From the NCBI GenBank assembly GCA_051362555.1, contig CM120641.1:33362401-33426400 (forward strand): 64,000 bases of DNA, in the 5' to 3' direction. The position numbers were made by a program, and so were the translations under genes. The notes below the pieces were generated by a model. That model had not been told where the DNA came from and made no database searches. It saw only the letters and a list, made by a program, of their open reading frames with translations. The DNA is from Lingula anatina. Lineage: Eukaryota; Animalia; Brachiopoda. Below, piece by piece: positions 1 to 51,099 of the stretch (position 1 is its first letter; each line of letters opens with the position of its first letter).

Positions 1-131
1 CAACTGTACTCATAGGTCCAGGCTTGCTTGAAATAACGGTTTCCTTTGGTTGTACCAGCTGGTAATCTGATTCCACCTGCAACCTGCCTTGTCCACTTTA
101 TACCTTCATCTGTGGCACCACCTACAGTTTT
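1..131 (-). CDS. Possible further gene A alternative exon, truncated by the window edge
   Basis: Acceptor atttgcag| at 131 gives an open phase-0 frame to the edge. Composition is coding-like, and a selector-type motif lies 264 nt upstream. Acceptor and frame are uncertain. Confidence 0.35.
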
Positions 132-394
132 CTGCAAATTCATAAATAAGCAACCCAAGCTGTTGGTAAAACTAAAGAAGTAAAATATGAAGTGTATTTT
201 TTTCTGCAAAAATAAGAATTCAAGCTTCTATATAAGCTTTTTTGACATTCCAATTGCAACACTGTGCCCAATTTGACTTGAATATATCTGACACTTTCTC
301 ACTTAAAAAACAGAAATGTAAAACTGCTATTGCATGCCATGGTTATCTGCCACTGTGTTATTGAACACTTGGACACGCATTAAAAGCTTCAACC

Positions 395-409
395 GTCACA
401 CCTAACACA
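395..409 (-). promoter_or_regulatory. Putative selector upstream of the leftmost candidate exon
   Basis: gtcacacctaacaca; 15/15 complementary to the docking sites. Confidence 0.55.
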
Positions 410-1931
410 ATCAACTAGTTTAATACTGACATTCAAATAAAACTGCTTTTCAAACTTGACCTGTATTTTTCAGTGTCATATATCATTCCAGTAAATTTGA
501 GGCTAATCAGTCCAACAGTTTTCAATATATTGAAAAGTGCAGGGCAAAAACAGCAATGGAGGTAGTTCATTGCTGTATGCACAGACACACTGTGTCTACA
601 CTTAAAAACCTCCCACATTATCTTTTCATTAAGCATGGAATTGCATTCTGTCCGTAGTAATTTTTTACCACTTCTGTGAAACCAATCATCTGAAAAACAT
701 TCAGTAAGTCAGTCATTCATAAGTCTTCTCAGCCCAACAACACTTATATTTTCACTAGTGGAATAACAAAGCCCTTCTCAAAACCATGGGGTATGCCTCG
801 GTAAAAGCTCATTTTGGTGGGGTTGGAGGTCAGCTACATGAAGGGGAAAAAAACCCTAGAAACTCCCACGCATTCCCTACCCAAGCAACTGAATAGTTAA
901 GGAACTTAAACTACTTCTTGTGGCTGTACACATTTTAACTTCTAATAAATCATAATTACTAATAAAACAATTGTACTGATAAAAAAATTAAAAGAAAGTC
1001 GAAGTCTCTGAGCAAAATAAAGGAAATCCTTTTTCTTAAAATGTCTGACAAAACAGTGAATGCATTGTGCAATACATAACTGTCAGGCAGCTTTTGCTTA
1101 GTAAGTTGTTTCTCAAGTCCCACTAACATCTAAATGACCAAAACAGAAAAAGAAATTGAATCATAATAGCTTTAAAATTTATGATAATTAAGGTCTTATG
1201 CCTCAGGAGACATGTGAGATGTGATAATCAAGACCTTGTCATAAATGAAATGTAATAGGTGTGATAGTAAAAACCTCATAGCACGGTTATATTGTCATAG
1301 GTGTGATTATAAAGATCTTGCATCACAGTTGAATTGTGGCAAGTGTGGCCAACACCTGGTGCATTTTGTCAGCCAATCATGGTTTTAATTGTTTCTTTTT
1401 TATTATCTACAATATTATCTACTCTAAAAAAATACAATGTCACATGGCTTAAAGTATATAAAACTGAAATGAATATTAAGACTCTACAAACTGACTTCAT
1501 CTCTATGGCCATTTCTGTAATACAGCAACATTAGATAAAGACAGTAGATAAAGAATAATTCAATTTAAATGTTCAACAACATGGCAAAAATAATCGCTAA
1601 CATTAATATATGCTTTAATGCTTTAAAATTGATATAAATATATCCAATAACAAGTAAGTTATCTGTCACTAAAAATACTCATTTGCCATTCTGTTCAAAT
1701 AAACATGTTTTCAGATCTGAAGAGTCACATACTCATAAGCATATTATTCATTGTAAAACATGAGTCCCACCACAGAAAGACAATATATACTGTATAAAAA
1801 CTACTCAGCTCTATTTTTTTAAATTTCTCTGGTGTTAAGTGTTTTGTAGTAATAATGCCTAAGAATTGGGGGGGGGGGGGGGGGGGGGGTAAGAGTGAGA
1901 TGTCAAAGGTTTATTTGGACAGATTGTTCGT

Positions 1932-2270
1932 TCAAGACCACTTGTCATATTGCTGACCTAAAGACACACCCTCCATCTGTAACTTTTTCTTCAACCGCTG
2001 ACGTTTGTGTCTTAGTCTGTCCATTTTTTTATGATGTTCATATTTCTGAGGATCAGCTTTAATCTTTTGTCTATACAATTTTCTTCTCAAAGCACCAGAA
2101 GACATGTGCGGTTTTTTCCTTGACGGCACCGGGACAGTATTGCTGCCAGAAATCCCAACTTCTGCATTCTGTCCTGACGCTGCATTTTCCCATGAGGTTC
2201 CTAGTCCAACATTGTGACCTGATGTCACAGATGCTACCGTATTCATCCTGGGTGCCCCAATTCCTGCAGC
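1932..2270 (-). CDS. Gene A alternative terminal exon (single exon)
   Basis: tcttttctag|GCT phase-0 acceptor at 2270, in frame with ORF 1932-2246: AAGIGAPRMNTV...RKKPHMSSGALRRKLYRQKIKADPQKYEHHKKMDRLRHKRQRLKKKLQM... An AATAAA lies on the minus strand at 1915-1910. Confidence 0.8.
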   Translation of the reverse strand, partial: AAGIGAPRMNTVASVTSGHNVGLGTSWENAASGQNAEVGISGSNTVPVPSRKKPHMSSGALRRKLYRQKIKADPQKYEHHKKMDRLRHKRQRLKKKLQMEGVSLGQQYDKWS

Positions 2271-2353
2271 CTAGAAAAGACAGGGCATGGCTTAACTGAG
2301 GACCAAGGTCTGGAACACTGGAATGGCCTGTAACTGAGACCATTCTTAATCAA

Positions 2354-2454
2354 TCACACCCAACACAATGTCCCTCTCAATGAAGAATATGTTACATCTT
2401 ACAGAATGTCACTCTTTCCAATTACATACTTGGTTTGAAGTCACACCTAACACA
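2354..2454 (-). promoter_or_regulatory. Two putative selectors upstream of the 2270 acceptor (2440-2454 and 2354-2367)
   Basis: gtcacacctaacaca (15/15) and tcacacccaacaca (13/14; the single change is G-U compatible in the transcript). Confidence 0.6.
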
Positions 2455-2668
2455 ACACAGAAATCTTTTTCTAATCAGCAATAAAAAAAAGCTAAATGTT
2501 ATCCCCTCAAACAAATCTGCCATGCATAGAATATGACATCTGTCCATGTGACAAATATAAAAAGAAAATGCACACATTCAAGTGGTGTTTAATGTTTAAC
2601 TGATGATTAGATGAACATTTTATAATGCAGAATAACACAAATAGACTAACCATCTTAAGACCTGGATT

Positions 2669-2848
2669 CTAGACAGTGTTCTCTGAAAGAAGTTTGCGTT
2701 TCATTCGCTGTCGCCTATGGCGTAGGCGGTCTAGTTTCTTATGGCGCTCATATCTAACAGGGTCTAATTTGACCAGTTGTCTATACTTTTGCATGTATGT
2801 GTTTCTTGCTAGTCCAGCAATAACTGCACTACCCTGGCCAGGTCTATC
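2669..2848 (-). CDS. Gene A alternative terminal exon (single exon; absent from the ORF track)
   Basis: ttttgtag| phase 0: DRPGQGSAVIAGLARNTYMQKYRQLVKLDPVRYERHKKLDRLRHRRQRMKRKLLSENTV* (180 nt). Strongly similar to the 1932-2270 exon. Confidence 0.8.
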   Translation of the reverse strand, partial: DRPGQGSAVIAGLARNTYMQKYRQLVKLDPVRYERHKKLDRLRHRRQRMKRKLLSENTV

Positions 2849-3052
2849 CTACAAAACAACACCACAATGTCACAATGTGTTAGGTGTGATGGTGTACTTA
2901 AATCTGCAAAGATATCATATGTGATAGTTAGTTAAGAAGGGAGGTCTGTGTGTATGTGTCGGTGTGTGTGTTTGAGGAGAGAGAGAGAGAGACAGAAAGA
3001 ATGCATTTGATCAAACACATCATTTCATTATCTATACACATTAACTTTACCA

Positions 3053-3067
3053 CTGTCACATCCAACA
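3053..3067 (-). promoter_or_regulatory. Putative degenerate selector upstream of the 2848 acceptor
   Basis: Plus ctgtcacatccaaca; pairs with the docking site with one mismatch and one G-U pair. Confidence 0.4.
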
Positions 3068-4201
3068 AACACTTACTATCCATATACAAGCATGAATCAA
3101 ATTATAACCTTAGGTTCTATGTATATTACTGACCACAGGAGGCTCCAAATGCATTTCCTGATACCATATTATGATTTATTGTCATTGTAGGCTATAGTAA
3201 GTGTTTTGCAGGGTGGGATTACGAGTATGATGTGTGCTCAGGTGTGACATTCTGCTAGGTGAGACAGTGTATTGGGTAAGATGTGTTAAACGTTACAAGG
3301 TGTTACATAAGACATGGAAAATATCACTTGTTGCCTTAAACACACATCTTTTGTTAGTAGTCTTCTCTTTTTATTTGTTTGGTTTCTGTCTGCTGTCTTT
3401 TGGTCTCCACAGTTTTTGCCTTACACACTCTCTATGTTTCTATCTTTATTCTTCCTTCTGTCTGGACTTAGCTTGTCAACACCCTTTTAAACATCTTTAA
3501 TTATATTTCTGTTGTTTTAGTTTTCAGAAACTCATCAGATGAAAACCAACTGCTGCAGGCAATTTGTGACCACCAACACTTGAGATATTTGGTTTACATA
3601 ATACAACACCTGAAGTGAATTGAACACACTGTCACCCTGACATTATTATTAATTCACATTTTCACATTAGTACTTTAGTCTATGCAACATGACTTCACTG
3701 ATTATACTCAATCAATGCCCCAATCAGATGTGCTTATCCTTATATAACATTACCAAGCCTAACCTAACCCAGACAGATCAACAGCAGCCTAAGTTCATTA
3801 TTCCAGTGTGATCAGGATACAAAAACAAATATACCATGTACCACAGATTCAAACTATAAAATGACACAATTTCTTCTCCACTGTCACCACAGTATTGGAT
3901 ATCAAAGATGTCGCCTCTGATATACAAATTCACTCAGGCCAAAAGTGTTGTGCTATTCATCATTTCATCACTGACCATTTTCATTTTGAAAATGAAATTT
4001 CTAAATCAATTCATTAACTTTCTTTTTATTCTAAAAACACAGGAAACTACAAACAGGATTAAAAAATCAAGATACACCATGCTTTGATACACATGTGAAA
4101 TATCTTTTTCTTCAGTAAGTGATAATATTGATTCTATTTTTCTTAAAAAAATCCATTTTTCAACTGCAAGAGTTGCATAAACATGTAGTACATAAAATAT
4201 G

Positions 4202-4639
4202 TCACGTATCTGTCTCTATCTTTATTTCTATTTCATTATTTAGCAACATTTGTCTCTCTTTAAGCCTTTTTCTTCTCTGGTACTGTCGCTTGCGAGCCTT
4301 TATTCTATGTTCCTCAATCTCTGCCTGTGTCCTGTTCTTTCTAATCATTTTCTTCCTTAGGCAGTCAGCCTTTTTGTATTCCTCATACTTTTCCTTATCT
4401 TCTCGCAACTTTGCTCTGTACCTGAATGAAACATCAGGAGCACTATAACATGAAATGTTTGATGTGAATTCATTCAACTGAAATACACATCTAACCAAAT
4501 TCTACCAAACATTCAGCAATTAACAAACATCATATAAGTAGTATTTCAATACTGATTGGTGATTCAATATTTTGAAATCATTCAACGTTACATACTTTCT
4601 CATTCTTTCTTTATTTGTAAGTCGGCACCTGCCTGGGAC
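4202..4639 (-). CDS. Gene A alternative terminal cassette (two exons: 4639-4596 and 4421-4202)
   Basis: atatag|VPGRCRLTNKERMR AA|GTATGT (44 nt, phase 0 to 2), then ttcattcag|G YRAKLREDKEKYEEYKKADCLRKKMIRKNRTQAEIEEHRIKARKRQYQRRKRLKERQMLLNNEIEIKIETDT*. The intron position matches cassette 1. Confidence 0.8.
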
Positions 4640-4928
4640 CTATATAAAAGAATTACATTTCATATTACTATGTGTACAGTATCAACGAAAGGCTTTCTTT
4701 TAATCCAAGTTTATGTATTAGCATAATAATCTACATTATTTCCTAAGGCTGAAATCTTCAAAGGATTCTTGGATTCTTGACATAAAATAAATTTAACTAA
4801 AAAATCGACTACTTTATGTAAACTGACAAGGGATAAACTTTCCAATGCAGTTTTGAAGACCTGGCAAATCTCAAACATTTCTGACAATACAATTACTGGA
4901 CAGGGTTACAAATGCAACCCTCTGAAAA

Positions 4929-4948
4929 CTGACACACCTAACACACTG
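4929..4948 (-). promoter_or_regulatory. Putative selector upstream of the 4639 acceptor
   Basis: Plus ctgacacacctaacacactg; 19/20 complementary to docking site 1; 290 nt upstream of the acceptor. Confidence 0.65.
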
Positions 4949-5915
4949 TAATTTTTTAAAAACATTTACAAACAAGATATAACCTACCTCTTTTTGTGTA
5001 CCCTGCTAATTGGCATTCTACATCATGAAAAGTCAACACAAAACAAAGACTTGATCTTTACCCAAAGTTCTTTTTTTGTCCAAAAAAGGAGAACCCTCCA
5101 AATTTTTCAAAATCTGTTCCCATAACATTTAGCAATGTAGGCATATATTGGATGCTCTGATAAGTGACCTATTCAAACAACAAATTTGCCAGCATGACAG
5201 ACCATAGATGCTATTTACCATGCTTGAGGTATATAACACAATGCCCTTTTTAACAAATTTACGTTAACAAATTTTTAGTTTTTAAACATGTTGAAACTTT
5301 TATTAACAATAAAAACCAACAATGCCAAACCTTGTCACAATGCTAAACCACCCAGAAAGATGACTAATTACAGCAAACACAACATCACTTAGCACTAGAC
5401 AAGATGTCGCTTACTGCATGTTTAAGCTAAAATTCTTAACTACAACTGTAAGTGTAGCCCCACATACTGAATGGAAAATCTACTGATGTGTATTAAGGCT
5501 ACATTTCATAGACCCAGAAATATTAATGTTGTATAAAAATGTGTAGTGCTATTAAGAAAAGTTTGGAATGAAAAAGTAAACACACTTTGGGGACGAGGTT
5601 TATAATAATTTTCTTTTTTTATGTGACAATGCATTAACAAACTCTGTTTATATACATATGTTCTGTTAAAGGACAAATGTACAGTCAACTTGTTTGTTCA
5701 AAAACTAGAGTGCAATATCAAATTAATGTCTGACCATCAGTTTTCTAGGGATTTCATTTCTGTGACATAGCGACAAAAATAATTCAAATGACTGTAAGGG
5801 TAACACCATTGTAGGTAATGTTATGGTGATTTGATAGGTTTATTACATAGAAGAGAAATGGATTCTGTTGTGATGAATGTTACTGTGCGAGTTGCAGACC
5901 CACTTGGTGTGAAAA

Positions 5916-6485
5916 TTAATCTTTTGGATATGTTGCCAGATATACTCTTAGCAACTTGACTTTTTTCTTGTCATAGGTTTCTCTCACTGTACATTCTTCG
6001 TCAATTTCTTTTTTACTAAAGTGGCACATCTTAAAATGAAAATCTGAAACTGCACCTTTTCCAGACTGTCCATGTTCAAAAAAGAGATCCATTGCCACCT
6101 GCTTAAGGTCTTTCATCTTCATATCACAAGGGATTGTTAAATGCCGAGTCCCGCCTCCATTTTGAGATTTAACCTGAGTGAACCCTTTGCCCCATTCTTT
6201 GTGAAGCCACCCTAGTTCTATCCTTCGAATATTCTTTTTTGCATTTTGGTTTCCATGTAATGACTCATATCTACTTGACTTTTTCTCCTTCAAAAACTTT
6301 TGTCTAAACTCTTCTTGTAACCTCTCCAGTATTCCCTCTTCCTTGCTTTGTGATGACTGGGTGCTATTTTCTTCACCTTCACACTGCTCCCCGACTAATG
6401 TACTTTGGGCTATTCTGTCCCCAAATGTGGGGACATATTCCTCTATCTGCTCATCAGTCATGATATGTATTAACTGTTCATCAAT
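5916..6485 (-). CDS. SAM-like / uncharacterised-domain exon; possible gene A alternative terminal exon or remnant of a mobile-element gene
   Basis: Phase-0 acceptor tctttcaccag|ATT at 6485 is in frame with ORF 5916-6461: IDEQLIHIMTDEQIEEYVPTFGDRIA (resembles the C-terminal half of a SAM domain) ... GNQNAKKNIRRIELGWLH...QVKSQNGGGTRHL...RVYLAT. From recall it resembles multicopy uncharacterised invertebrate/fish proteins; not verified by search. Confidence 0.5.
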   Translation of the reverse strand: MDEQLIHIMTDEQIEEYVPTFGDRIAQSTLVGEQCEGEENSTQSSQSKEEGILERLQEEFRQKFLKEKKSSRYESLHGNQNAKKNIRRIELGWLHKEWGKGFTQVKSQNGGGTRHLTIPCDMKMKDLKQVAMDLFFEHGQSGKGAVSDFHFKMCHFSKKEIDEECTVRETYDKKKVKLLRVYLATYPKD

Positions 6486-6955
6486 CTGGTGAAAGAAGTA
6501 ATTATCTTTAACAAAAAATCAAATAAAAATCTATGAAGACATTCAACAAGTTATGAACCAATACCAAGGCAAGGTACCTAGTCACCAATAGACAGTTTTT
6601 GAAAATTTAATCAAACTCTGCCCAAAACTTTTGGCAAAATGTTGTTAACAGACAGACCTCACAGTGAAGAGCTATCAGACCGACAGCAGACCTAACAGAA
6701 AGCAAATATAGGCAAATATGCCATTTTAGATTTGAAATATATGGGTCACTACCGAACCTCTCTGATCTGCTTTTTGGTGAGGGTTCCAAAATATCTGAAA
6801 ATTTGTTTCTATGACAAATAGTTTTGGAGATGTGACCTCTGAATGCCTTTAAAGACATGCACTCAGAAGTTGCAAAGTAAATGATTCAAAACTTATTTTT
6901 CTATGTATATTAACAAAAGGAACCAAAAACACAACCTCCTTGGCAGAATTTCATA

Positions 6956-6974
6956 CTGTCACACCTAAAACACT
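6956..6974 (-). promoter_or_regulatory. Putative selector upstream of the 6485 acceptor
   Basis: Plus ctgtcacacctaaaacact; 18/19 complementary to docking site 1. Confidence 0.55.
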
Positions 6975-7258
6975 ATTACTTTTTTACATTTTAAACACTT
7001 GAACAATTTTTCTATCTGAAGAAAAGAAAACACTTACCTGTACCTCTTGATAGTCAAACTTGTAATTTCAAAATGCATTGGCTTTGATCACCAACCACTA
7101 GGTTCTCCATGATTAATGTACACAAGCAGTACTCTTTACTTTAGAACCAAATTTCTATTACCTATATACAGTTTTGAATCATGACACTTTCAAAGAAATG
7201 AGTTGTCTGTAAAATTGTATAAATCTACACTGAAGCTTGAAGGGATGATAGAGTGTTA

Positions 7259-7473
7259 CACCCCATTTCCATAGATTAGATCGACCTACTTTAGATCGAC
7301 CTAACTCCCTGGGGGTTCACGCTAAATAGCTGTCAGCCGGGGAGACACGAAAGTTAATTACCCCCTTACAGCTTGTGGTAGGCGGGACGGACATTTAAGT
7401 CGGATTATCTGAAAGTAATCTAATGAGACTCCCCGTGGGGATAGATCGATCTAAAATCTATGGGAATAGAGCC
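7259..7473. mobile_element. MITE (non-autonomous TIR element; 3-bp TSD suggests PIF/Harbinger)
   Basis: Imperfect TIRs caccccatttccatagat...atctatgggaatagagcc, flanked by TTA on both sides. Internally near-palindromic and highly similar to 23275-23500. Confidence 0.75.
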
Positions 7474-8153
7474 TTAGTGTAAATGTTAATCTCACAAATC
7501 TTTCTCCACATTTTATCAGAAATATAGGACTCCAACAATATTGTGGACACTCAATCAAAATGCCAGACTGACACAGTAAATTCAGGACACTTGGCACATT
7601 TATAAATAAGGCAAGGCAACAAAACTTCAGGTTGATCCAAGTGTTCTCATTGAAGATGTATATTTTGCTTTATCTTTACATAAAATGAATACAACATTTT
7701 ATTATCCAGTAATCCAATACCATTGACTATATATATGACACTGAATTTTGACAGCAGCCATAAAAAGACACAACATCATTCCCAAGTATGTCACTGCATT
7801 TACATGAACTACAGACACTATAGCATATAACTGCCATACAGGAGGCAGCAGACAATACATACGTATATAACAGCCACATAGGTGGCAGCACACTATACAT
7901 ATACTGTGGGCGGTTGGGTAGGAGGGGGTAAGTAGCAAAAACTGTCCCAAGATTGTGCTGTGCTTCCTATAATGCATATTACAAAATAGTTCCTTTAATT
8001 GTAACATCACTCATTCTCAAAATAACCCAAGTGGGCATTTCTAAATGGCAAAAATTCACCTTGTCCTCAGATATACATAAATATATATATGTATTATGAC
8101 CAATAAATTTATGAAGTTCATATGTAGCACCAAATTGTTAGGAGTTATTAGGA

Positions 8154-8788
8154 TTACCAGTCTGCTTCTTCAAAAGAATGAGATTCTGTTTTTATCTGAA
8201 CATTTTCAGTTTTGTTTTCTAACATCTTTCTGCGGTTCAGTTTCATTCTTTGGTACTGCTGCTTAGCAGCGAACAATTGATCTTTTTCAGATTTTTCTGG
8301 TGTCCTGTTACTTCTTTCCAGTCTTTTCCTCAACCTGTCATACTTCTTGAAATACTCCCACAGTTCACAGTCTCCTTTAATTTTATTTCTAAATCTTTAG
8401 TAAAAAGAAAAGGAATATATATACAGGAAGGTAATTTTCACTTAAAAGTTTGAGTGCCACAAAGAAAAAGAAGTCACTATGTAATGTTATGTAATGTAAC
8501 AATGTAACAAGCAGATTCCAGTTATGAAAAATCTGACAAAGAAATACTTCTAATCGAAGGAAAAATCCTGAACTTTTTAGCTTATGTTTCACATACATTA
8601 ACTAGTAAGCAATATTTGATGTAAAGAGGCCTCTAGATATATATGAAAACAGTTTCTCAATTATTTCCCAACACAGCTGATTGATTCTCAATGTTTCCCA
8701 AGCCCTATGGTAATAGTTAAATGCCATACCTCTTAACCCTCTCTGCATTTGTTAGTAGTTCCTTACCAACTCGTTTCCTACCAGGCAC
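8154..8788 (-). CDS. Gene A alternative terminal cassette 1 (two exons: 8788-8730 and 8394-8154)
   Basis: ccatag|VPGRKRVGKELLTNAERVK AG|GTATGG (59 nt, phase 0 to 2), then RFRNKIKGDCELWEYFKKYDRLRKRLERSNRTPEKSEKDQLFAAKQQYQRMKLNRRKMLENKTENVQIKTESHSFEEADW*. An in-frame alternative acceptor exists at 8388. Clearly paralogous to the 4639-4202 cassette. Confidence 0.75.
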
Positions 8789-10008
8789 CTATGGAAGAGA
8801 CACATAAATGTGCTGTAACTAGTCTACACAATATTATCAATCTTCTTACATCATGGTAGATCACTTGAATTAATGCAGTTATAAAAACTGCAGCTTTTGC
8901 AAAAAAATAATTGAAAAAATCCACTTATGCTGTGCACTTAGTATCATTTTCTGAATTTTCTATTGCGCCATCAAGAATATTTTTCAGGGAGAAATGTTCA
9001 TGAATCTGTTTTAAATTATTTAAAAACATTACTAAGCCACGACTGTTCATCATTTGAAAAACAGCAATTTACTCTTATCTGATTTCAGATATCAAAATAT
9101 TCTCTTTGCTATGTCTGCTTTCTTAAGACAAGGGAAGTCAAATCAATGCCTTCGCTACCTACTGCAACAGGATTATTAATACTGGATGTGAAACAGAAAG
9201 ACTGTGTCACTAACAGTGGCATATATTCTATGACAACACTAAACCTATCAACTGTGTTAATAAATGCCAGCGAAGATTTTTTTATTTTTTTTTTAAATTT
9301 TGGACACCTTTGTCTGAAAGAGACTTGGAAGAAATAGGTCCTCTGCACTTCACCTCATGATAAAATGAGAGCTGGATACCATATGCTTCTAAACTGTTCA
9401 GCTACACCTCCTATCTAGCTTATATCCAATATGTACTAGTTTCCCTTGAAAGCATTAAACAAGCTGAGCAGACAGGCAAACTTGTCCAATAATCAAAGAT
9501 CGATGTGTATAGCAAAATCCTATAACGAACTTTGTGGCCGAAGGAAGGAAAAAAGGAAGGATGAAAGGACAGATAGGTAGTATGACAAATCTAACCTGAC
9601 TGATGAGCAGGTTTAGCATTTTACAACTTTTAAATTTAATGAAGTTAATTTAGTGGATTCACAACTTCCATCAAGCAAAGATCCTTATTTCACCTTGGTC
9701 AGATACATATATATAGCAAGTTCAAGATCTTGAATACATTTGCTGTAAGCGAAAAAAAAAAACCCCACTCTTTGCCAAACACCTTGTTAGGTCTCTATGA
9801 CAAGAATTTCTTATATATATATATATATATCCCACTTAAACTTTACGAATACAAGGTTTTACCTTGGGTTAATTTCATACAACAGCCACAAGTTTTTATT
9901 GAAAATATTTTGCCATTTCCTCACTCAAGATACCATATTCTTCACCCTGATACTGCTGAGATTAGGCATTCAGTCACACAGACTCTCATAGCTAGAAGCA
10001 TCAAATTA

Positions 10009-10012
<4 letters not shown>

Positions 10013-10063
<51 letters not shown>
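10013..10063. repeat. (TC)n(TA)n microsatellite
   Basis: Direct reading. Confidence 0.9.
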
Positions 10064-10900
10064 GCATTCAGTGTCCTACAGGTAGTATGGCAGAATGGCT
10101 GTAGTTACAAGGGGATTCAAGGGGATTTCATTAATAGATCTTACAGACTCTGAAATCATATTTTCTTCTTAACATTTTGGTAACCCATCCTTTTATAAGA
10201 ATATATTATTCCCAGACACTCAAAGCTTAAGTCTGTTTTCTTGCACTTCAAGAATGTATACGAGTGTTATCTTCCAGAGACCTTCCAGGGAGACATGTAA
10301 ATATCAAAGCAACTATCATATCTTTTAGAATAAATGTCTTATATACAAAAGGGCGATCCACTTGGATAATTTAAGTAAAGTTATGTAACTGCTATTTTTT
10401 TCAACACATCACAGGGTAATTTTAGGTCTCAAAATCTAAAATTCAAGAGCCACCAACACTAAACCATAACAACCAGTACAGAATTTTATGGTCTTTTCAT
10501 AAGCTTTTTTATATTTCATATTTCTATTTCACCTGTTTATATAGCAACATTGCAACTTAATGATAATAATAAAATACAATTATAGACTGGCTGAAGTCGA
10601 TATGTTATTTTGCATATCTCAGAAAATGCACTGATAAAACGACCAATAGACCTTTTTTCTGATTGGTCAAAAAACCAATGACAATGTTATCAGTCAATCT
10701 TGTTTTATCAGACCTCAATTTCATAGATATTATAAGCTCATAATCTGTAAATCTACTCTAATTACATGGTTTACATAATAAAATACGAACTCACAACATT
10801 TTTTGCATTCAATACATAGAATCCTGCTGGAGTCACAAAATTGATTTTAATTCCAGAAACCAATACTCAGAGATGATTCATCATTTTATTCAACAAACTG

Positions 10901-10920
10901 ACAGTGTGTTAGGTGTGACA
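10901..10920 (-). promoter_or_regulatory. Putative RNA docking site 2 (duplicate copy)
   Basis: Plus strand acagtgtgttaggtgtgaca, sharing a 19-nt identical core with 11066-11084. Confidence 0.6.
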
Positions 10921-11065
10921 TTGTGTTACATGTAACATTGTATTATGTGTGCATGATATTGGCAGTATCACTGAACTGATGTGACAATGTTTTACAGTTT
11001 ACCATAGCCAAATTATAAAGATCTTAGATATGTGACAGCATTCTGGGTGTGCCAAAATTGGATTT

Positions 11066-11085
11066 CAGTGTGTTAGGTGTGACAG
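11066..11085 (-). promoter_or_regulatory. Putative RNA docking site 1 (transcript CUGUCACACCUAACACACUG)
   Basis: Plus strand cagtgtgttaggtgtgacag, about 37 nt into the intron after the last constant exon. Reverse-complementary to motifs upstream of the alternative exons. Confidence 0.65.
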
Positions 11086-11122
11086 TCATTATTAACATCA
11101 AACACAATCAAATAGGACTTAC

Positions 11123-12618
11123 CTTTACCTGTTCTTGTCTTCTGGCTGTGGCTTGACCACTGTGCTGGACTGCTGTGTGCTGACCAGTGTGGTGCCCAGT
11201 GGATGAAGAACTGTGTCCTAATACAACGTGTTGCGAGGCTATTGCTTGTGACGCCATGGGAACACTGTGAATGTACGAAGATGACGGCTTATTAGCACTG
11301 TCACCTGTATTGTCATCAATAGCACCAGTTAAGTCTTCATAATCATCATCATCAGTTTCTACCTTCACTTCAACAATATCATGCCTAGACTCCTCTACAC
11401 TGACTTCCTCAGTCTGTTTTGTGTCCGAATGTGTTTGTTGTGTCAGTGCTGTGGTAGTTGTGCCTGATGTTAAACTTGGCAGTCTCTCTTCTTGGATAAT
11501 TCTTGGGAATTTCATTGCACCACTTGTGACAGTTTCAGCAGGCCTCTTCCTAGAAATATTTCTAAATAATCTCCGAGGAGAAGGCTCAGGAGTAGGTTGG
11601 TGGCCCTGTGTAACATTCGTTGCCATGGGAACTTGACTTACATAATGGTCTTGAGGGGTCACCTGGTCAGGTGGTTGACCACTGTCTGAGTGACTGCTCT
11701 CCAGTTCTGCATTTTGACTGCTGGTGACGTGGGCATCTGGAATAACAGCCTCATTCTCAGTCTCTGATCTTCCCTGAAACACTTTCAGTGCTTGCTCTAC
11801 TTCAGCCACAAAGTGTCCATCTTGGAAGGAGATTGACAGGTTAGAAAGCTCCAGTGAGATCACATTGTTCTGCTTACCACGCACCTCAATGCTGTGCTGA
11901 AACTCTCCTGGAAAGTTAATATACAGTTCTGTGTACTTGAAGAGGCTTGGAAAATTGATAATAATAATAATAATGCTAACACACATACATACATACATAC
12001 ATACATACATACATACATACATACATGTAAACAGGTAAAATGTTCACTAGATTATGTGCTTGAAGAAGTTAAAAACTGAACCATTAAAATCCAGAAATCT
12101 TAACTTTTTAGCCTGGACTAAATGACAACGAGTTACAAATTAGTTGAAGTAAAATTTAATCAAAAGTTAATAACAGCCACATCTGCTTCACAAAAAAATG
12201 ATAAAAGAAGTATGTACAACATTCTTAATAACCACTGGAAACAGCGTATAACCATGAAAACTTTTTTGTTATACAATATGATGTCATTTGAACTAAATAG
12301 AGGTTGCAGAGGAAATAAGTCATTTTATGAGCATCTGTCCAGGATTAGCGTCCAGTCTACAATGTCAAAAGGTACAAACTGTCAATGTCACACTAACTTC
12401 ACTAGGCCAATTACTGCAAATGTCTTATGTGTTCAATTAAATAAAAAGAAAAAAAGAACTGTCATATATTTTAATTCAGACCAAATATATTGTGACATTG
12501 CTTTCCTACCCTGACTGTTTGTTGCAATAAACTTGCAGAGTTGGCTCTCCCTCACACCAGCACATGTCTGAACTAGATCTGCAGGCAGGTTGATATCCAG
12601 CCTTGAAATCTTAAGCAT
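11123..12618 (-). CDS. Constant coding exons of an uncharacterised putative nuclear protein with alternative C-termini (gene A)
   Basis: Exon 12618-12510 (ATG; MLKISRLDINLPADLVQTCAGVRESQLCKFIATNSQ G|GTAGG, phase 1) splices in frame to exon 11907-11123 (ttccag|GA GAG TTT..., GEFQHSIEVRG...RRQEQVK|GTAAGT, phase 0; a second phase-0 donor lies at 11129). The product has an ordered ~85-aa N-terminus, then an S/T/Q/H-rich disordered region with a basic SRKRP and a SUMO-type VKVE followed by acidic residues. No family recognised. Confidence 0.75.
11956..12025. repeat. (ATA)n and (CATA)n microsatellites
   Basis: Direct reading; intronic. Confidence 0.9.
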
Positions 12619-13645
12619 CTTTATTTACTGCAATGATAAAATGTGGAAAAAGGTTAGCTTGATAAAATAAGAGTGGTGAAAAAATGCTGAAATGTGTTGC
12701 ATGTGAAGTTAAAATTTTAGGCCACAATTTAAAACATTTGAATGAATATAAGAATTTTGCAACTTAAACGAAAAATTATCCAACTGACACTTTCTTTTTT
12801 CATATCATTTATTATTAAACAGTACAGTCTTATTGCCATATTTAAGATGATGCTAATTAAAATTTTGACAAAGTTGACAATCCAATGTTCACATAAACAT
12901 GGAGTCTAGAGTAAAAAGACAAATGCATTTGACTCTGTTGGCACAATAACAACAATCATCATCATCATCAACAAAACTATAGTTGTCACAGGTAAAAATT
13001 AATTGTGATATCACCAAACTTAATTTCTTTCATATTATACATATTAACCACTATTTACGTGGTGCATTTGCTTTCAATAACGTTTAATTACATTACAAGA
13101 ACTGTGCCACGGAAAAATCCAGAATTGTGGTAGCATGATAATGCTGGCAGGCATTATCTGTTACACATATAATGAGTTCACAAATAAATAAATAAATAAA
13201 TAAATAAATAAACGAAAATCAATAGAATAACAACAATAAGGCCATGTGATAGAATATATAAGGGTTTTTCTTGGATTCTTTCTTCCTTCAAGTAAACAAC
13301 TATCCTTGGAAGTTAGAGGAATAAAAGATAAAAGCCAAATATGAAAAGACAACAAATGACAACTTCCACGCCATCCTTTCACAATCTATTTTCTTTAACT
13401 ATTTCATCAAGCATGAATGCAAAACCTATTTAAAACTACAACAACCAAACAAAATATCCTAGCTAGCTACCCTAGAAACGTTATATACAAGTTTAACACA
13501 CAAGGCACGCACACAAAAAGAAAATATGAACCCCAGACGGTGACCTACTTTATTTTAATGAATTGAAATAACATTTTAAGGAAGCCATTTAAAATTTGCA
13601 ACACTTCACTACGACCTAGAGTTATTGTAAAGATTATTTGCCTAC

Positions 13646-13800
13646 CTTTCCTTTTATCGGCGCTTCTTTGGTCGAATAAAACTTTTCCTTTTTTCATCGA
13701 CATAAATTAGGCATCTCTGAATGGAAGAAAGCGTATCCTCTACTCTAACTTTAGACCTTCCTTTTCTAAAGAGCATTTACGTCAGGAATTTCTGTTGCAG
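13646..13800 (-). other. Probable first (5' UTR/uORF) exon of gene A
   Basis: Donor AAAG|GTAGGC at 13646, in a region with more CpG than its flanks. The ATG at 13703 opens MSMKKGKVLFDQRSADKRK, which stops shortly after splicing to the acceptor at 12627, so it is likely a uORF. The 5' boundary is approximate. Confidence 0.45.
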
Positions 13801-15001
13801 ACGTCTTGACTCAACACTCGACTTACAAATTTTTACAGTGTGAAGAATGAGAGTAATTAAAATACGTTACGACTGTCAAAAAATTTATAAGGCACAGTTT
13901 TCAGATGGTAAAAGAAAGGGTTATGCACAATTATAGTATTTTATAAACGGCGGTGTTTGCTGCACGTTGTTGTTCTGACCTTCCACCAAGTTTTTATTTC
14001 ATGATTGAAATCGTTTAGCCAAGGGTTTGTTTATCCTACTCATTCTTGAGATTATGTCCAACCTCGGTTATTAAAAAAACAACAACAACAAACAATAAAA
14101 AAACTGCGTTTTGCCCCCCCCCCACCCCACCCCAAGATTGTGATGATCCTCTACATGTACAGTGCATAATGCCAGTACAGTACGTTAACGTGTAAATAGG
14201 CATACTGATAAAGTTATTATATATATTACTATGATTATAATTATTATTAGGGGATTAAACTCATTATATTTATCAATTATACCAATTTTCATGAAAACAC
14301 TCAAAATATTGAGAAAATACCATGAAGAGGTACGTGTTGTCAGTGGTCTACAAGATTTGTGATAGGCAGTCAGATTACACAAGAATACATTCATTTTTTT
14401 AATGATCAAGCAAAAAACAAAGAAAATACTTTGACATTTCACTGAAATCTTTATATGAACCCCTGACACAAATATTGTATCATTTTCTTAGCATCAGCTT
14501 GTAGAAGCCTATATTTTGTACATTTTAAAACAATATACAAGTATATGTATTTATGTACAAGTATTTATGATATTTGCACGATATGAGCAGTATGTACATA
14601 TGAAAATGAATTTGATGATATAAAAATTGTGTTTGTCTTGCTACCTTTTACATAGTCTAATAAATTCTTACGCATTTTTAAAAAGATATATAATCCCTAG
14701 GCTCTCATGTATATCACTTGGAAACATCTGTGTTTTAGCACAAGTTGAGAAATACAAATGGAGCAACAAAACAAAATACATTAGTTGTGTTTTCTTCTAG
14801 TCTTTGTACAGTTTATAAATTGTGAACATTTTTCTTCTATTCATTCTTTTCTTTTCAAATACAGTACATGTGTGTGTGGGTAAGATTCGTTGGCACCAAT
14901 GCATAAAATTATATAGGTAAGAGTTATGGTATGGTAAGGTATGAATGAGCTATGAAATAATGACAAGATATGCAAGAAATGTCTCTTTAAATGCTATCCT
15001 T

Positions 15002-15895
15002 TTATCCATATGTTACTGATCGCACTGTTCTGTAGTTCATGCTGTTCACAACTCTGAAAAGAAAAGGATGTAAATTTAGATAAAATCTTCATCTTCAAAA
15101 AACATACATTCTACAAACAATTAAGATCCCATGTTTATAAATTTTATATTAGAACCTCTAAATTATGGTAAAATTTCTTGCAAGACTTGGAACCAATATT
15201 AACAAGGTTATGATTATAGTAATGGTTATCATCATTTCAATGATAACAATAATAACAATATTTAGCAAAGAAAGTTTATTTAGTGACATAAATATATACT
15301 TATTTCAAAAGAATCACTTACTTTGTAACATTCTGGTCTAAGATGGAAGAGATAGGAGCGGTCTTTGGCCCTGTAGATGGGACAAATATTTTTCCTGTTT
15401 TGTTGACTACATGAACTGGCCTCTTGTACTTTATGCCATATGGATCTTGACTATGTGAGGGGTATGGGTCAAAGGTACCGGCTTTGGATCCTCCAGCCTA
15501 GAAATTATTTATATAATTATTTCACAATCAATTTTACATGCTTGTCCATTACGTATTTTCAATCAATATAATATTATAATATATATAATTATTATATAGA
15601 CATTTCTCAAATATTCCCTGTAGCTATTTATTGGGATATTCATCAATGTGCCTTTTTTTCAGCTACTTAAACGTGAGGTTCCGTTTTGTGACAATTATCT
15701 AATCATGCTGGGTGTAACATTGTTTTTGGTGCATGGCAGACTGATTGTTGTGTTGTATTGTGTTGTGTCATCACAGTTACCACATTTCGGAACTGAAATT
15801 TGGGACAAGTCTTTAAACAATCAGAAATGTGGGAGGTTGAATACAGGATGCATAACATTTTAATTAAAAGGTAATGCTCTTTCATGTAGCCTAAG

Positions 15896-15939
<44 letters not shown>

Positions 15940-18802
15940 TACCTTCTTGGGTGGATTACTGGGCCTGAATGGTTTGACATCTGGGGGTTTCGATACTCCT
16001 TTCTTTGCTGGTGGCAAGGGCCTGTCTGACATGAAAGGATTACCATCAAAGTATGCTTTTGGATGCATGTTCAATCTGAATGCACCTCCTTTTAGTGCTT
16101 TCCTGTGTGCTTCATTCTCACGCTGTAAGAAAAAAAATAATAATGATGATCATGTCACAACAGAATAAAAAAAAGCTATGAATGAGTTTTTAAAAAAGTA
16201 TGTTAATTTAATCAAAATGTTTAAGAGAACAAACAAACAAACAAAAAAAAATGAAATTTAGCAAATATTGAGACCAAGTTTCATTTTCTAACATCGAAGA
16301 TAAAATAGAAATGCAATTATTTAATGTGAATATAATATTGAATTCGTTGTTTTTAAGTTATTTCCAAAAATTATTAAAAATTAATGAGGTATTAGTATGT
16401 TAGTGCAATTAGAATAATTATTAGCAAAAAAAAAAGAAAAAAAATTGTTGTGAAAAGTGAACAGGACTCCTTTAAAAAACATTCACACAATACTTGCAAA
16501 GTGGGGAAAAAAGAAAATTCAAAAGTAAGCCACACCTTTTGCAAAATTTTTCCTTTTTCATATTGTTCCGTTGAGTACTTAGGATAGTCCCCAATTGTTA
16601 CACTGATAAAACTGCAAAATTAAATAATACGACAAAGTGCATAAGACCACTCGTGAATGCGATAGACGAGACAAGCACTGAATTTTGTATTATCTTCAAG
16701 CCACTGTCATCACAATACAGCAACATGCATCTGAAATCAAAGTTAGTTTGCAGGTGATAGGGAGTTGTTTTTTTAATGAGTTTAAGTTGTAAATTCACAA
16801 TTTTTCAAATTATATACTAAACCACCTGTCACCTGACAAATATTAGTAGATTAATAAGTGTGCATATGTATGAAGTGCAGTGCAATTGGTGATCACCATC
16901 AAACCCAGTGTCTACCTTGGAGATCTCTTTTGTCTTGTCATATTCATTGCCCTTGTATTCAGGATATTTTGATATTGTCACACTTAAATATCTGAAATAC
17001 ACAATTTATGATATAGTACCCACAGTAGAGAATGTAGATACATGTATACATAAATAACAATTTCTTTTTTCGTTGCAGACAAGCATTTAACATATTGCTT
17101 TCTTTTAGGTGCTATCTGGAATAAAGAACAAAATGGACAAAGCCATTCACTATTCATAAATCGTTATCTATAGATACAAAACAAGAACAAGCAGTGAAAA
17201 TCTTATGTTTTGTTAGCTTGCAGTCATAACAAATTTTTGTTGTTTGTATCTGTAGAACTTCTCACTGTATTATACAAATACCAAGCAGATTAACCTCTTC
17301 AGTTTGTCTAAACATGATTATAAGTAAAAATTAATTCCACTGATCTATATATTATCTAACTCCTCAAAAAAACATTTTTAGCTTCTTTCAATTCTTTAAC
17401 ACTGGTTGTGTTTGAAAACAAATTATTTAACATTTTTGAAATTAAATTGTATGTTTTCAAAAATGTGATATACTAATGTCAAGTCTGTCACTGATAATAT
17501 GAAACACTGAAATCAAGGCTTTTATGAAAAAAATTAATGAACCAAACACCTAATTAACAAACAGTCAGTATAGCAGTATAAATATAGGGCTTACCCATAG
17601 CCTGTCCCTTTTTTGGCTGGGTTAGTTGTAAAGTTCCTTCCTGGTGCTTTATATCCCTGTCTTGCTTTGGCTACAGGACTAAAAGCACTTACAGGACCAG
17701 CAAATGTACCATAATGGTTTCCAAGACCAGAACTGCAAAAGGACATACAAATAGTGATGAGTGCATCAATTAGCTTTTCATTATCTTCATTGATTTAACT
17801 TCTGTGGTGCAGCATTTTTCACAAATTATCTGTAGGCAGTAGTTATGAAAAATAAAATAAATGGGCAAGAAAATTCATATCTAAAATATACTTTCATAAA
17901 ATCCTTATTCATACCAAAATATTTCACATGGACATATATCTGGGTATATATGGACACATATCTGGGCAAAAATGATTGATGTCTCTGCTGTACTCCAATG
18001 AGAGGTAAAATTCCACATTTTAAATACTTTATCAGTACTGAAAATATACTTACGGCATTTTTTCACCGCTGCTTGGAATAAACTGTTTTCCAATATTCTT
18101 CTGCATTTCTTTAACTCTCCTTTGCCTCCTAATTTTAATGGGATCTGTGTATGCCTCTGATTCAAACACTCTGTTGAATTTTTCATGGAAATAGCCATGT
18201 TGCAATGCAGATCTTTCTTTTGAGCCACCAGGTAGCATTTGCTTTCCCTTTGAAGCAGAAACATTGAATTGGACTGGAAAATAAGGTTATATATTGTACA
18301 TATTCATAGAATCAATGGGAAATAAGCAAAACAGGTATTTCATGTTCCTATTTTGTCTTCTATTGGTCTTGTACATTTTATAGTAAAAAAAAAAAGTAAA
18401 AACACTGAACAACACATTTAGATGTATCAATTTACAAGTCACAGTTGTATGCACTGATAAGTGCAAAAAAAGTTGCGTAAGTACATATTTGATATGCTGA
18501 ATATTAAGGCTTATATAAGTAATGAAAATTAAGCTTCCCTTTAGGCCATCTATTCATCCATCTTCTTAATTTCTATTATCATGTTTGTAAGAAATAAAAA
18601 GGTTTTTAATGCTCATATTTGACCCACAAATCTAAATGGCTTTTAATATGTAGATGGCATTCATTGATTAACTGTTAAAGAAGTAATTTTAATTTGACTT
18701 ACTTTCTCCTGGTCGTCTATATCTGTCGCCTATGGTAGCGTATGACATCTCTTGAAACACTCCAATCCTCTCCATATCCGTCTTTCCTCCTTTTTCACCC
18801 AT
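15002..18802 (-). CDS. CFAP96: Cilia- and flagella-associated protein 96 (C4orf47/UPF0602 family)
   Basis: Exons 18802-18703 (MGEKGGKTDMERIGVFQEMSYATIGD), 18273-18054 (KQMLPGGSK...), 17732-17595 (GLGNHYGTF...TNPAKKGTGYG), 16991-16916 or 16611-16536, 16122-15943, 15497-15322 and 15053-15002. All are GT-AG with consistent phases, and the motifs match recalled human C4orf47. Confidence 0.9.
15897..15934. repeat. (CA)n microsatellite
   Basis: Direct reading; in a CFAP96 intron next to a donor site. Confidence 0.9.
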
Positions 18803-19160: not shown

Positions 19161-19912
19161 AATTGCGACTGATCTAAACAGCGAAAAATAAAAACAGTGC
19201 GATTTAAGTGTCTGATTTTAAGTCTCAGTTCATGATTGAATTTTAGCAACAAATGCAAACTAGCTGCAGTGCAGACTTGGTTTGGTTTTGCAAGTTGCAC
19301 TGCAGCTAGTTGCAGTTGGCAAATGAGAATTATAGGCTAAGGAGCATCCTTGATTTTGTTCTTTGAATCGTTTGGCATTTGTAAAGAGTGCTAATACGCC
19401 ATTTGGTTCCTGTATATATTTCTTTTTTTCTTTCTTAATTTTTTTCACTTGGCATAAAAATTTTTAAATGCATATTTTGGGCAGGGATAATAATTTCATT
19501 CTTAAAAGAGTTTGGCATGCAATGAACATCAGTACAGGCTATGCCTTGGAGAAAAGAAGGGAGGCTGGTTAAAGACTAGGGCATTATGGCAAGTTGTCTA
19601 ACAAGACAATCTGGTGAAAAAGAAATGGGAGCCTGACATTGAAATTGTTTAACCAGCATGCTCAAAGGGATTTCTAATTCATATCATCATAGAAAATGCA
19701 CTGTTCTTTTCTATTGCTTTGTTGTTACACATATAAATATCAAACAGGAAAGGTAACGCAATCAGCTTAAATCAGAGCCAGTTTGCTGTTAAGTTCACAA
19801 GGATTCATAAAAAATGATACAGTTCTTTAAATTCCTGAAATTTTAATTCCAGTATGGGTAACCTTCTTGATTTTATATCCGTTTTAGTTGTTGCAAAATA
19901 GCAGTGTCCATC

Positions 19913-25900: not shown

Positions 25901-26145
25901 GTACATTTGACAGCTTTGCTGCCTTGTTGTTAATTTGTGTTCACAGATATGCTGATCAACTCTCTTGCAGGTCATCACAGATTTCCATGCATGACATATC
26001 AGATGATGACGATGATATGAACACATTTAGGTCTAATTCACACAAAGTAAATAGTGCATCAGCCAAGAGAAAGGGCAAGGGAGTAGCATTCAGTGATGAC
26101 AGCGATGAGGACTTTCCAACGATGCCAACAAAGAGGCGTAGGTAG
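19913..26145 (+). CDS. MRE11: Double-strand break repair nuclease MRE11
   Basis: Exons 19913-20173, 20397-21162, 21342-21438, 22251-22345, 22571-22662, 22910-23029, 23547-23950 and 25971-26145. The phosphoesterase motifs ATDCHLG, GGDLFH, IHGNHDD, LHQN and WGHEH are intact. It also has a GAR/RG repeat and an acidic C-terminus. Confidence 0.97.
21602..21796. mobile_element. MITE, related subfamily, in an MRE11 intron
   Basis: Ends gactgggttcccat...gggaatggtccc, flanked by ATA on both sides. Shares internal motifs (taattaccc, gatagatcgatc) with the 7259 and 23275 copies. Confidence 0.6.
23275..23500. mobile_element. MITE copy in an MRE11 intron
   Basis: Highly similar to 7259-7473. Its right end atctatggaaatggggtg is the exact reverse complement of the left TIR of the 7259 copy. 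ATA flanks both sides. Confidence 0.75.
24115..25760. repeat. Two tandem copies of a composite interspersed repeat with an internal ~159-bp tandem array and a (GGCGAT)n microsatellite
   Basis: ~24120-24360 is repeated at ~25016-25230. The unit caggtcaagttcgaaaat recurs at ~25155, 25314, 25473 and 25635. Both copies end near catgggcctgaag (~24807, ~25737). Confidence 0.7.

Positions 26146-51059: not shown

Positions 51060-51099
<40 letters not shown>

What the first reader, a model, noticed from the sequence alone, without database searches (positions are those of the whole stretch)
395..11085. Candidate docking-site/selector competing RNA-pairing system that selects alternative last exons
Seen: two copies of a ~20-nt element (11066-11085, 10901-10920) lie just downstream of the last constant donor of gene A. 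Opposite-orientation copies lie upstream, in transcript direction, of the acceptors of the distal cassettes: 6956 (18/19), 4929 (19/20), 3053 (degenerate), 2440 (15/15), 2354 (G-U compatible change) and 395 (15/15). I found none before the most proximal cassette (8788), as expected if it is the default. Established: insect Dscam1 exon 6 uses one docking site pairing with competing selectors to enforce mutually exclusive choice. Inference: here, pairing loops out the intervening cassettes and brings the common donor to one distal acceptor over distances up to ~11 kb. I know of no description of this gene or motif.
Basis: partly seen in the sequence, partly recalled or inferred. Interest (0 to 1): 0.92.

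Follow-up and report, generated by a model that had tools for sequence, protein, structure and literature searches.

The report
Brachiopod docking-selector splice switch
A lamp-shell (Lingula) gene splices one shared front end onto several alternative, likely DNA-binding endings, and a short sequence just after the shared exon is complementary to tags placed before those endings, which likely pair in the RNA to pick the ending, as shown for some fruit-fly genes.

Summary
The motif is real: 10 of 12 window matches to the 14-mer (0.72 expected) lie in this gene, which matches Lingula anatina LOC106156073 at 98%. RNA reads join donor 11123 to acceptors 4639, 2848 and 2270, and each has a reverse-complement 'selector' 81-290 nt upstream (permutation P about 0.002). 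The gene belongs to a five-member Lingula family: a shared 85-aa domain of no known family plus many alternative DNA-binding tails, like lola/mod(mdg4) without a BTB domain. Five further docking-orientation copies lie among the cassettes. Exon 2848 is internal and splices on to 2270. The 'default' cassette 8788 is barely used. The most-used cassette has the weakest selector, but a separate (GA)n/(UC)n helix points to it. Joins to 6485 and 131 were not listed. The motif also occurs in FNIP and as tandem arrays in other RNAs, and its core equals the T-box half-site. Competing RNA pairing is the best explanation (0.6) but is untested: no orthologue DNA, no mutagenesis. The mechanism is published for Drosophila 3' cassettes; my searches found no lophotrochozoan case.

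The parts
12511..12618 (-). First coding exon of gene A (start of the 85-aa shared domain)
   Evidence: ATG at 12618; matches the N-terminus of RefSeq LOC106156073 isoforms
11123..11907 (-). Last constant exon; donors at 11129 and 11123
   Evidence: 98% identical to LOC106156073; depth 29-47 in X1-X3; all listed joins use 11123; RefSeq models use both donors
11066..11085 (-). Docking copy D1, 38 nt after the donor
10899..10951 (-). Docking copy D2 (10902-10921), best unit of a degenerate 17-nt tandem array
   Evidence: TRF period 17, 3.1 copies, 77% matches; AATAAA at 10890
10000..10049 (-). (GA)18 run plus 7-nt extension: predicted 5' arm of a second long-range helix
   Evidence: (I3)
8154..8788 (-). 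Proximal cassette: mini-exon 8788-8730 plus last exon from 8394; no selector
   Evidence: RefSeq X4/X5; depth at most 0.8 in bins 7981-8778 and no join listed
6956..6974 (-). Selector S6956, 471 nt before acceptor 6485
5916..6485 (-). Candidate unannotated cassette, 189-aa ORF unrelated to the other cassettes
   Evidence: Sense depth about 2 in X2 and X3 over 5986-6384; no join listed; look-alikes in unnamed animal clusters, score 0.93
4929..4948 (-). Selector S4929 (strongest), 290 nt before acceptor 4639
4202..4639 (-). Cassette: mini-exon 4639-4596 plus last exon from 4421
   Evidence: RefSeq X6; joins 11123>4639 in 3/6/0/0 reads and 4596>4421 in 5/4/0/0
3232..3267 (-). Two internal docking-orientation copies; predicted to fold back on S3053
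3053..3071 (-). Selector S3053 (weakest), 205 nt before acceptor 2848
2977..3011 (-). UC-rich run: predicted 3' arm pairing with the (GA)18 run, 129 nt before acceptor 2848
   Evidence: duplex -42.6 kcal/mol, about -26 after opening costs
2874..2892 (-). Internal docking-orientation copy over the likely branch point of acceptor 2848
   Evidence: perfect 14-mer; CTAAC about 35 nt before the acceptor; the branch-point role is inferred
2651..2848 (-). Most-used cassette; internal exon whose stop codon lies 18 nt before its donor
   Evidence: RefSeq X8/X9; joins 11123>2848 in 4/13/14/0 reads and 2651>2270 in 17/19/12/0
2351..2457 (-). Selectors S2438 and S2351 (with a degenerate unit at 2389), 168 and 81 nt before acceptor 2270
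1932..2270 (-). Cassette 2270: coding tail when joined to the constant exon, 3' UTR when joined to 2651
   Evidence: RefSeq X1/X2; join 11123>2270 in 10/0/1/0 reads
1249..1309 (-). Two internal docking-orientation copies in the long 3' UTR
   Evidence: reads cover 1-1600 continuously in X1-X3
393..412 (-). Selector S393, 262 nt before a candidate acceptor at 131
   Evidence: no join listed, and reads lie on both sides of 131

Best explanation
This Lingula gene splices one constant exon to several alternative 3' cassettes, and the docking copies after the donor likely base-pair, one selector at a time, with the complementary copies before the distal acceptors, which would loop out the nearer cassettes and favour that acceptor. 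Shown: the cassettes, the joins to 4639, 2848 and 2270, and the positions and complementarity of the copies. Predicted: helices of 15-19 base pairs, net -13 to -25 kcal/mol with D1 for five of six selectors. Inferred: the internal docking-orientation copies act as competing or balancing partners (3232-3267 folds back on S3053; 2874-2892 covers the branch point of exon 2848 and can pair with S2438/S2351 to skip it), and a (GA)n/(UC)n helix supplies the pull towards exon 2848 that its weak selector lacks. The product would be a set of proteins with one shared N-terminal domain and different basic-helix, zinc-finger or helix-turn-helix tails.
For: Enrichment: 10 of 12 matches in 11 of 64 kb, 0.72 expected. 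The six best partners of D1 on 10.9 kb of downstream sense RNA are the six selectors. An unbiased search of 500 nt before each of 8 acceptors gives D1 or D2 as the best partner for 6485, 4639, 2270 and 131, the GA run then D1 for 2848, and no dock among the top rows for 8788 or the cassette-internal acceptors 8394 and 4421. 3 of 3 read-verified distal acceptors have a selector within 300 nt (P = 0.0022 in 200,000 random placements; window width chosen after seeing the data). Selector flanks are unrelated in all pairs but one that overlaps itself, so the 15-19 nt are kept or placed on their own, not as part of copied segments. Selector transitions are G-U-compatible in 5 of 6 cases (not significant). 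Same anatomy as PGRP-LC, CG42235 and Pip, where compensatory mutations were done (PMC6191721).
Against: Usage runs against strength: 31 of 51 listed constant-to-cassette reads in X1-X3 go to 2848, whose selector nets only -2 kcal/mol, while S6956 and S393 (about -21) have no listed join (7 and 8 joint rows were hidden). The GA/UC helix that would explain this was found after the fact and crosses the D-S3053 helix. The motif is not private to the gene: an exact 14-mer lies before an FNIP acceptor with no partner better than -18.8 in 12 kb, and reads from other loci carry tandem copies. The best-kept positions (4-12, in 11-13 of 13 copies) are the T-box half-site. No orthologue DNA was found, so conservation and covariation are untested.
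Confidence: 0.6

Rival explanations
1. The element works as a single-stranded or DNA-level factor-binding site, not by pairing: for example T-box sites at internal promoters or enhancers, or an RNA-binding-protein site near 3' splice sites.
For: The core equals the Brachyury half-site (PMC4010391 passages); 9 exact half-sites in 1-11122 against 4 in the other 53 kb; both orientations occur among the cassettes; the FNIP copy sits about 30 nt before an acceptor without a partner.
Against: Identity runs to 15-19 nt, well beyond an 8-nt half-site, and does not match the TBX1 tandem consensus. S4929, S2351 and S3053 each break the half-site yet keep most of the helix. All copies next to the common donor face one way.
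Confidence: 0.14
2. The same pairing joins separate RNA molecules: a constant-exon transcript carrying the docks pairs with separately transcribed cassette RNAs, possibly of paralogues, and is trans-spliced, as in lola/mod(mdg4) and mite sDscam.
For: Same gene layout as lola/mod(mdg4) in five paralogues; AATAAA and ATTAAA directly after D2; zero depth over 9976-10773 in 7 of 7 runs; dock-selector pairing drives trans-splicing in mite sDscam (PMC9258826 section 8); other RNAs carry docking-orientation arrays.
Against: All cassettes in the window are collinear and on one strand. Zero intron depth is normal for poly(A) RNA. Depth in bin 10774-11172 is about what the exon end plus the foreign motif reads give, so no stable dock-bearing RNA of this gene is evident. 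No excess of U1-type pseudo-donors (2 sites in 11 kb, one of them the real donor; 14 in 104 kb of background).
Confidence: 0.12
3. The 17-mer is the unit of a dispersed minisatellite that collected here without function; cassette choice relies on splice-site strength and poly(A) sites.
For: D2 is part of a 17-nt tandem array. Reads from other loci hold two or more head-to-tail units; one context has 184 and 162 reads in X2 and X3, about four times the depth of this gene.
Against: Selectors at 6956, 4929, 3053 and 393 are single units in unrelated flanks, each before an acceptor-like site; density is far higher in the gene than in the other 53 kb. A repeat origin is compatible with later use for pairing.
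Confidence: 0.1
4. The inverted copies are DNA recombination sites; inversion between a dock and a selector turns the nearer cassettes around and leaves one acceptor next to the constant exon (shufflon-like).
For: The geometry allows it: inverted repeats of 15-19 nt flank the skipped cassettes.
Against: All opposite-strand joints in the reads have at most 27 letters on the shorter side, the motif alone, never its flanks; all cassettes in the assembly face one way; the neighbours identified are CFAP96, MRE11, FNIP and a UCH-family gene. RNA reads are a weak test for intronic DNA joints.
Confidence: 0.03

Closest known systems
Competing RNA pairing at 3' variable regions: Drosophila PGRP-LC, CG42235, Pip (Pan et al. 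2018, PMC6191721; abstract and sections 7, 12, 14 read)
   Same: A docking site in the intron after the common exon, selectors before alternative multi-exon 3' cassettes, more than 10 kb span (Pip over 12 kb), alternative donors, and usage in the animal not explained by pairing strength alone.
   Different: Different phylum and gene class; two docks plus five internal docking-orientation copies of one motif; a predicted second helix from simple repeats; the motif recurs in other genes; cassettes include unrelated domains; no mutational proof here.
Dscam1 exon 6 docking site, selectors and 'balancer' pairings (PMC8791459; abstract only)
   Same: One upstream dock, many selectors; extra pairings that favour distal choices.
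   Different: Dscam1 exons are internal and strictly mutually exclusive; here they are 3' cassettes tied to poly(A) choice, and one (2848) splices on to the next.
Drosophila lola and mod(mdg4) (PMC11426971 and PMC4387717, passages)
   Same: Common N-terminal domain plus tens of alternative C-terminal DNA-binding domains.
   Different: No BTB domain (no Pfam match); trans-splicing there rests on a U1-binding pseudo-donor, not on a dock-selector match; trans-splicing is not shown here.
Mite sDscam-beta cis- and trans-splicing through shared docks and selectors (PMC9258826; abstract and section 8)
   Same: A paralogue family in which one pairing code could act within and between genes.
   Different: There the variable part is 5' and the dock downstream; sharing of the motif among the Lingula paralogues was not testable.
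Fish (AC)m-(GT)n bridged introns (PMC4691745; passages)
   Same: Complementary simple repeats bring intron ends together; the dock is AC-rich on the 5' side and the selector GU-rich on the 3' side.
   Different: The repeat pair here is GA/UC, 1.07 kb from the donor and 129 nt from the acceptor, not within 50 nt of the splice sites.

Membership tests
Docking-site/selector competing RNA pairing | Docking element in the intron next to the common exon | tested here: met
   D1 38 nt and D2 about 200 nt after donor 11123
Docking-site/selector competing RNA pairing | Complementary selector before each alternative cassette | tested here: met
   3 of 3 read-verified distal acceptors; none before the proximal cassette or the two cassette-internal acceptors
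Docking-site/selector competing RNA pairing | Common donor is spliced to each selector-marked acceptor | tested here: inconclusive
   Joins listed for 3 of 5 (4639, 2848, 2270); none listed for 6485 and 131, with 8 and 7 rows hidden
Docking-site/selector competing RNA pairing | Pairing strength tracks cassette usage | tested here: not met
   Weakest selector marks the most-used cassette. PMC6191721 section 7 reports the correlation in minigenes but not in wild-type flies, so this is not decisive
Docking-site/selector competing RNA pairing | Conservation and covariation across species | not testable with these tools
   No genome held; no related locus or motif match in metagenome contigs
Docking-site/selector competing RNA pairing | Disruptive mutation shifts, compensatory mutation restores, isoform choice | not testable with these tools
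   Needs a minigene
lola / mod(mdg4) trans-spliced BTB genes | N-terminal BTB domain | tested here: not met
   No Pfam match for the 85-aa domain in 5 of 5 sequences; no PDB sequence match below E 0.6; low-confidence model mostly beta
lola / mod(mdg4) trans-spliced BTB genes | Shared N-terminus with many alternative DNA-binding C-termini | tested here: met
   9 RefSeq isoform names for this gene with 6 different tails, 22 fetched isoforms of LOC106170880 diverging after residue 368; zf-C2H2, zf-C17orf113, HTH and Myb-like tails
lola / mod(mdg4) trans-spliced BTB genes | Trans-splicing; U1-binding pseudo-donor in the common intron | tested here: inconclusive
   One perfect pseudo-donor at 7038, beyond the first cassette, at background frequency; phase of alleles not readable
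T-box binding site | 8-nt Brachyury half-site | tested here: met
   9 exact copies in the gene
T-box binding site | Protein binding and enhancer activity | not testable with these tools
   Needs ChIP, EMSA or a reporter
(AC)m-(GT)n bridged introns | AC and GT repeats within 50 nt of the 5' and 3' splice sites | tested here: not met
   The repeat pair is GA/UC and lies further away

The most novel reading that the evidence does not exclude
Lingula has evolved, independently of insect lola/mod(mdg4), a transcription-factor family whose members share one 17-nt pairing code. Any reading frame that gains a selector becomes a new tail (the unrelated ORF at 6485 would be a recent capture), constant exons can be joined in trans to tails of other paralogues, and RNAs that carry docking arrays compete in trans to shift the isoform mix.
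Probability: 0.15. Interest if true: 0.9.

Novelty: new variant of a known kind. Interest (0 to 1): 0.62.

Why it matters
Docking-site/selector splicing has been tested mainly in arthropods and a few vertebrate genes. A brachiopod case would show independent reuse of the device in a third lineage, in a gene family that rebuilds the lola/mod(mdg4) layout with a different N-terminal domain. The locus is compact, has near-identical 17-19-nt elements and clear predictions, so it suits a minigene test of how one donor chooses among distant 3' ends. The reuse of the same motif in other RNAs makes a shared or trans-acting pairing code testable.

Tried and rejected
Whole-genome scan: no genome held. 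Orthologue DNA: 0 of 64 pattern matches in metagenome contigs were relatives; the 19-mer had 0 matches there. The look-up of sequencing runs: no RNA holder listed; nine raw runs by species label were offered and seven laid. Known RNA family: 2 weak Rfam matches in 1-14000, both far below gathering score. Fold of the 85-aa domain: pLDDT 55 from 5 sequences, no Foldseek match at E 0.001, no usable Atlas hit, only Lingula and three unnamed proteins among 1.84 billion representatives, searched with the constant exon alone; the wider structure search was not run. Origin from the interspersed repeat at 7256-7476: rejected; only one of its three copies (21696) drifts towards the core and the 3' half of the motif is absent. 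The opposite-strand and backward 'joints' between motif copies were considered as evidence of pairing, template switching or inversion and rejected: the shorter side is at most 27 letters and the letters between are further motif units, so these reads come from other loci. Selectors as recursive splice sites (they contain AG|GT): no join at those positions was listed. G-U asymmetry: 5 to 1 in selectors, 6 to 5 in internal docks; not significant. Earlier findings by place and by sequence: none.
Full report
Observation. The 14-mer has 12 matches with up to 2 mismatches in 64 kb against 0.72 expected by shuffling; 10 of the 12 lie in 1-11085. A duplex scan with D1 over 10.9 kb of downstream sense RNA ranks the six selectors first (-24.9 to -36.1 kcal/mol; next -20.0); the best site in the other 52 kb, both strands, is -24.3, the FNIP copy. 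A matrix built on the 13 copies, and so biased towards them, finds 14 sites above 12 bits inside 1-11122 and 3 outside.

The gene. The constant exon matches Lingula anatina LOC106156073 at 98%. RefSeq names nine isoforms with six different tails. Four tails map in the window (acceptors 8788, 4639, 2848, 2270) and encode related basic, helix-like segments without a Pfam match; two (zf-C17orf113 and a weak helix-turn-helix) are not in the window. That the basic tails bind DNA is my inference. The 85-aa N-terminal domain has no Pfam, PDB or Atlas match and is shared by five distinct Lingula paralogues, plus two near-identical copies, all with alternative tails; LOC106170880 reaches isoform X36, and the 22 isoforms I fetched diverge after residue 368. 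This is the layout of Drosophila lola and mod(mdg4) without a BTB domain.

RNA evidence. Seven of nine offered runs were laid on 1-11950 (6-30% of each run read). In X1/X2/X3/X9 donor 11123 joins 2848 in 4/13/14/0 reads, 2270 in 10/0/1/0 and 4639 in 3/6/0/0; 4596 joins 4421 in 5/4/0/0; 2651 joins 2270 in 17/19/12/0. X7 shows the 4639 join in 3 reads (table 5c); X4 and X5 have none in the rows shown. So alternative acceptor choice over 6.5-8.9 kb is real. Three corrections follow. Exon 2848-2651 is internal: its stop lies 18 nt before its donor, which by the usual 50-55-nt rule (recalled) would spare it from decay, and exon 2270 then serves as its 3' UTR. The proximal cassette 8788 is hardly used in these samples. 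No join was listed for 6485 or 131; 8 and 7 joint rows were hidden. The 6485 ORF has sense depth about 2 in X2 and X3; the 131 site is crossed by unspliced reads of a long 3' UTR.

Evidence for pairing. Each of the 3 read-verified distal acceptors has a selector 81-290 nt upstream (P = 0.0022 by random placement of six sites; the 300-nt width was chosen after seeing the data). When the 500 nt before each of 8 acceptors were searched against the whole 5' region without using the motif, D1 or D2 came first for 6485, 4639, 2270 and 131; no dock came up for 8788 or the cassette-internal acceptors 8394 and 4421. Flanks of the selectors are not alike, which argues that the short element itself is kept. 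After opening costs D1 nets -25.5 (S4929), -21.4 (S393), -20.6 (S6956), -14.0 (S2438), -13.2 (S2351) and -2.0 kcal/mol (S3053).

Evidence against the simple model. Usage runs opposite to strength: 31 of 51 listed constant-to-cassette reads go to 2848. S3053 is predicted to be held by the internal copy at 3249-3267. The unbiased search, however, found a second helix aimed at this acceptor: the (GA)18 run at 10014-10049 with a 7-nt extension against the UC-rich run at 2977-3011 (-42.6, net about -26). Six GA or CT runs of five or more units exist in the window, so the pair may be chance; it was found after the fact and it crosses the D-S3053 helix. Pan et al. also report that strength does not explain usage in wild-type flies.

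The motif is not private to this gene. An exact 14-mer lies about 30 nt before an acceptor of the FNIP gene, in selector orientation, with no good partner in 12 kb. Many reads carry two or more head-to-tail units in flanks foreign to this locus; one context has 184 and 162 reads in X2 and X3 with 86-90% agreement, and the same-strand class is 23:0, 49:0 and 28:2 in favour of RNA in docking orientation. D2 itself is part of a 17-nt array. These RNAs could be UTRs of paralogues, unrelated minisatellites or competitors; I could not place them. The best-kept nine positions equal the T-box half-site, which keeps a DNA-level rival alive, though three selectors break the half-site and keep the helix.

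Mechanism. Most likely (0.6): docks and selectors pair within the pre-mRNA, one at a time, loop out nearer cassettes and favour the acceptor that follows; internal docking copies and the GA/UC helix tune the choice, together with poly(A) sites. The joins and the anatomy are shown, the helices predicted, their effect inferred. Rivals: factor-binding site (0.14), pairing-guided trans-splicing (0.12), neutral minisatellite (0.10), DNA inversion (0.03).

Comparison with what is known. Competing pairing at 3' cassettes is published with compensatory mutants for PGRP-LC, CG42235 and Pip (PMC6191721; abstract, sections 7, 12, 14). Balancer pairings are published for Dscam1 (PMC8791459; abstract), pairing-assisted trans-splicing for mite sDscam (PMC9258826; abstract, section 8), a duplication origin for selectors in PMC6071210 (abstract), repeat bridges in fish (PMC4691745; passages), and U1-dependent trans-splicing for mod(mdg4) and lola (PMC4387717, PMC11426971; passages). 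Six searches listed no paper on this gene, this family or a lophotrochozoan docking system; I saw only the top 20-25 rows of the larger ones, the library lacks most subscription papers, and no supplements were read.

Verdict. A real feature, working most likely like a known device, in a new lineage and gene family, with extra parts (internal docks, a possible repeat bridge, reuse of the motif elsewhere). Membership in the docking-selector class is met on anatomy and open on conservation and mutation. New variant of a known kind; interest 0.62.

Noticed in passing
window 32323-32341: Exact 14-mer of the motif in an FNIP intron, in selector orientation, about 30 nt before a 3' splice site; no complementary partner found in 28000-40000.
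   Followed up: partly
reads laid at window 10899-10927: Other poly(A) RNAs carry tandem arrays of the 17-nt unit, mostly in docking orientation; one context is about four times as deep as this gene. Source unknown.
   Followed up: partly
window 12511-12618 and 11760-11907; proteins P0002, P0005, P0018, P0042, P0048: An 85-aa N-terminal domain of no known family, 63-84% identical among five Lingula paralogues that all have alternative zinc-finger, HTH, Myb-like or basic tails; three unnamed proteins from other samples also carry it.
   Followed up: partly
window 5916-6485: 189-aa ORF unrelated to the other tails, expressed on the gene's strand, with look-alikes in unnamed mollusc and chordate clusters; may be a captured piece of a mobile gene (my inference).
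   Followed up: partly
window 7256-7476, 21620-21810, 23270-23510: Three copies of an interspersed repeat with palindromic ends, very abundant in RNA reads.
   Followed up: partly
window 7030-7038 and 4980-4988: Donor-like sites (9 of 9 and 7.5 of 9) 60 and 40 nt upstream of S6956 and S4929; no use seen in reads.
   Followed up: partly
window about 1957: RefSeq X1/X2 leave exon 2270 before its stop and add a further exon that is not in the window.
   Followed up: no
window 11227-11345: Runs of different studies differ from the window and from each other at many fixed positions, as from divergent populations.
   Followed up: no
window 15000-18300, 19900-26200, 28600-38000, 41100-60000: Neighbours: CFAP96-like, MRE11, FNIP and a UCH-family protease gene; a 159-nt tandem repeat at 25148-25658 inside MRE11.
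   Followed up: no
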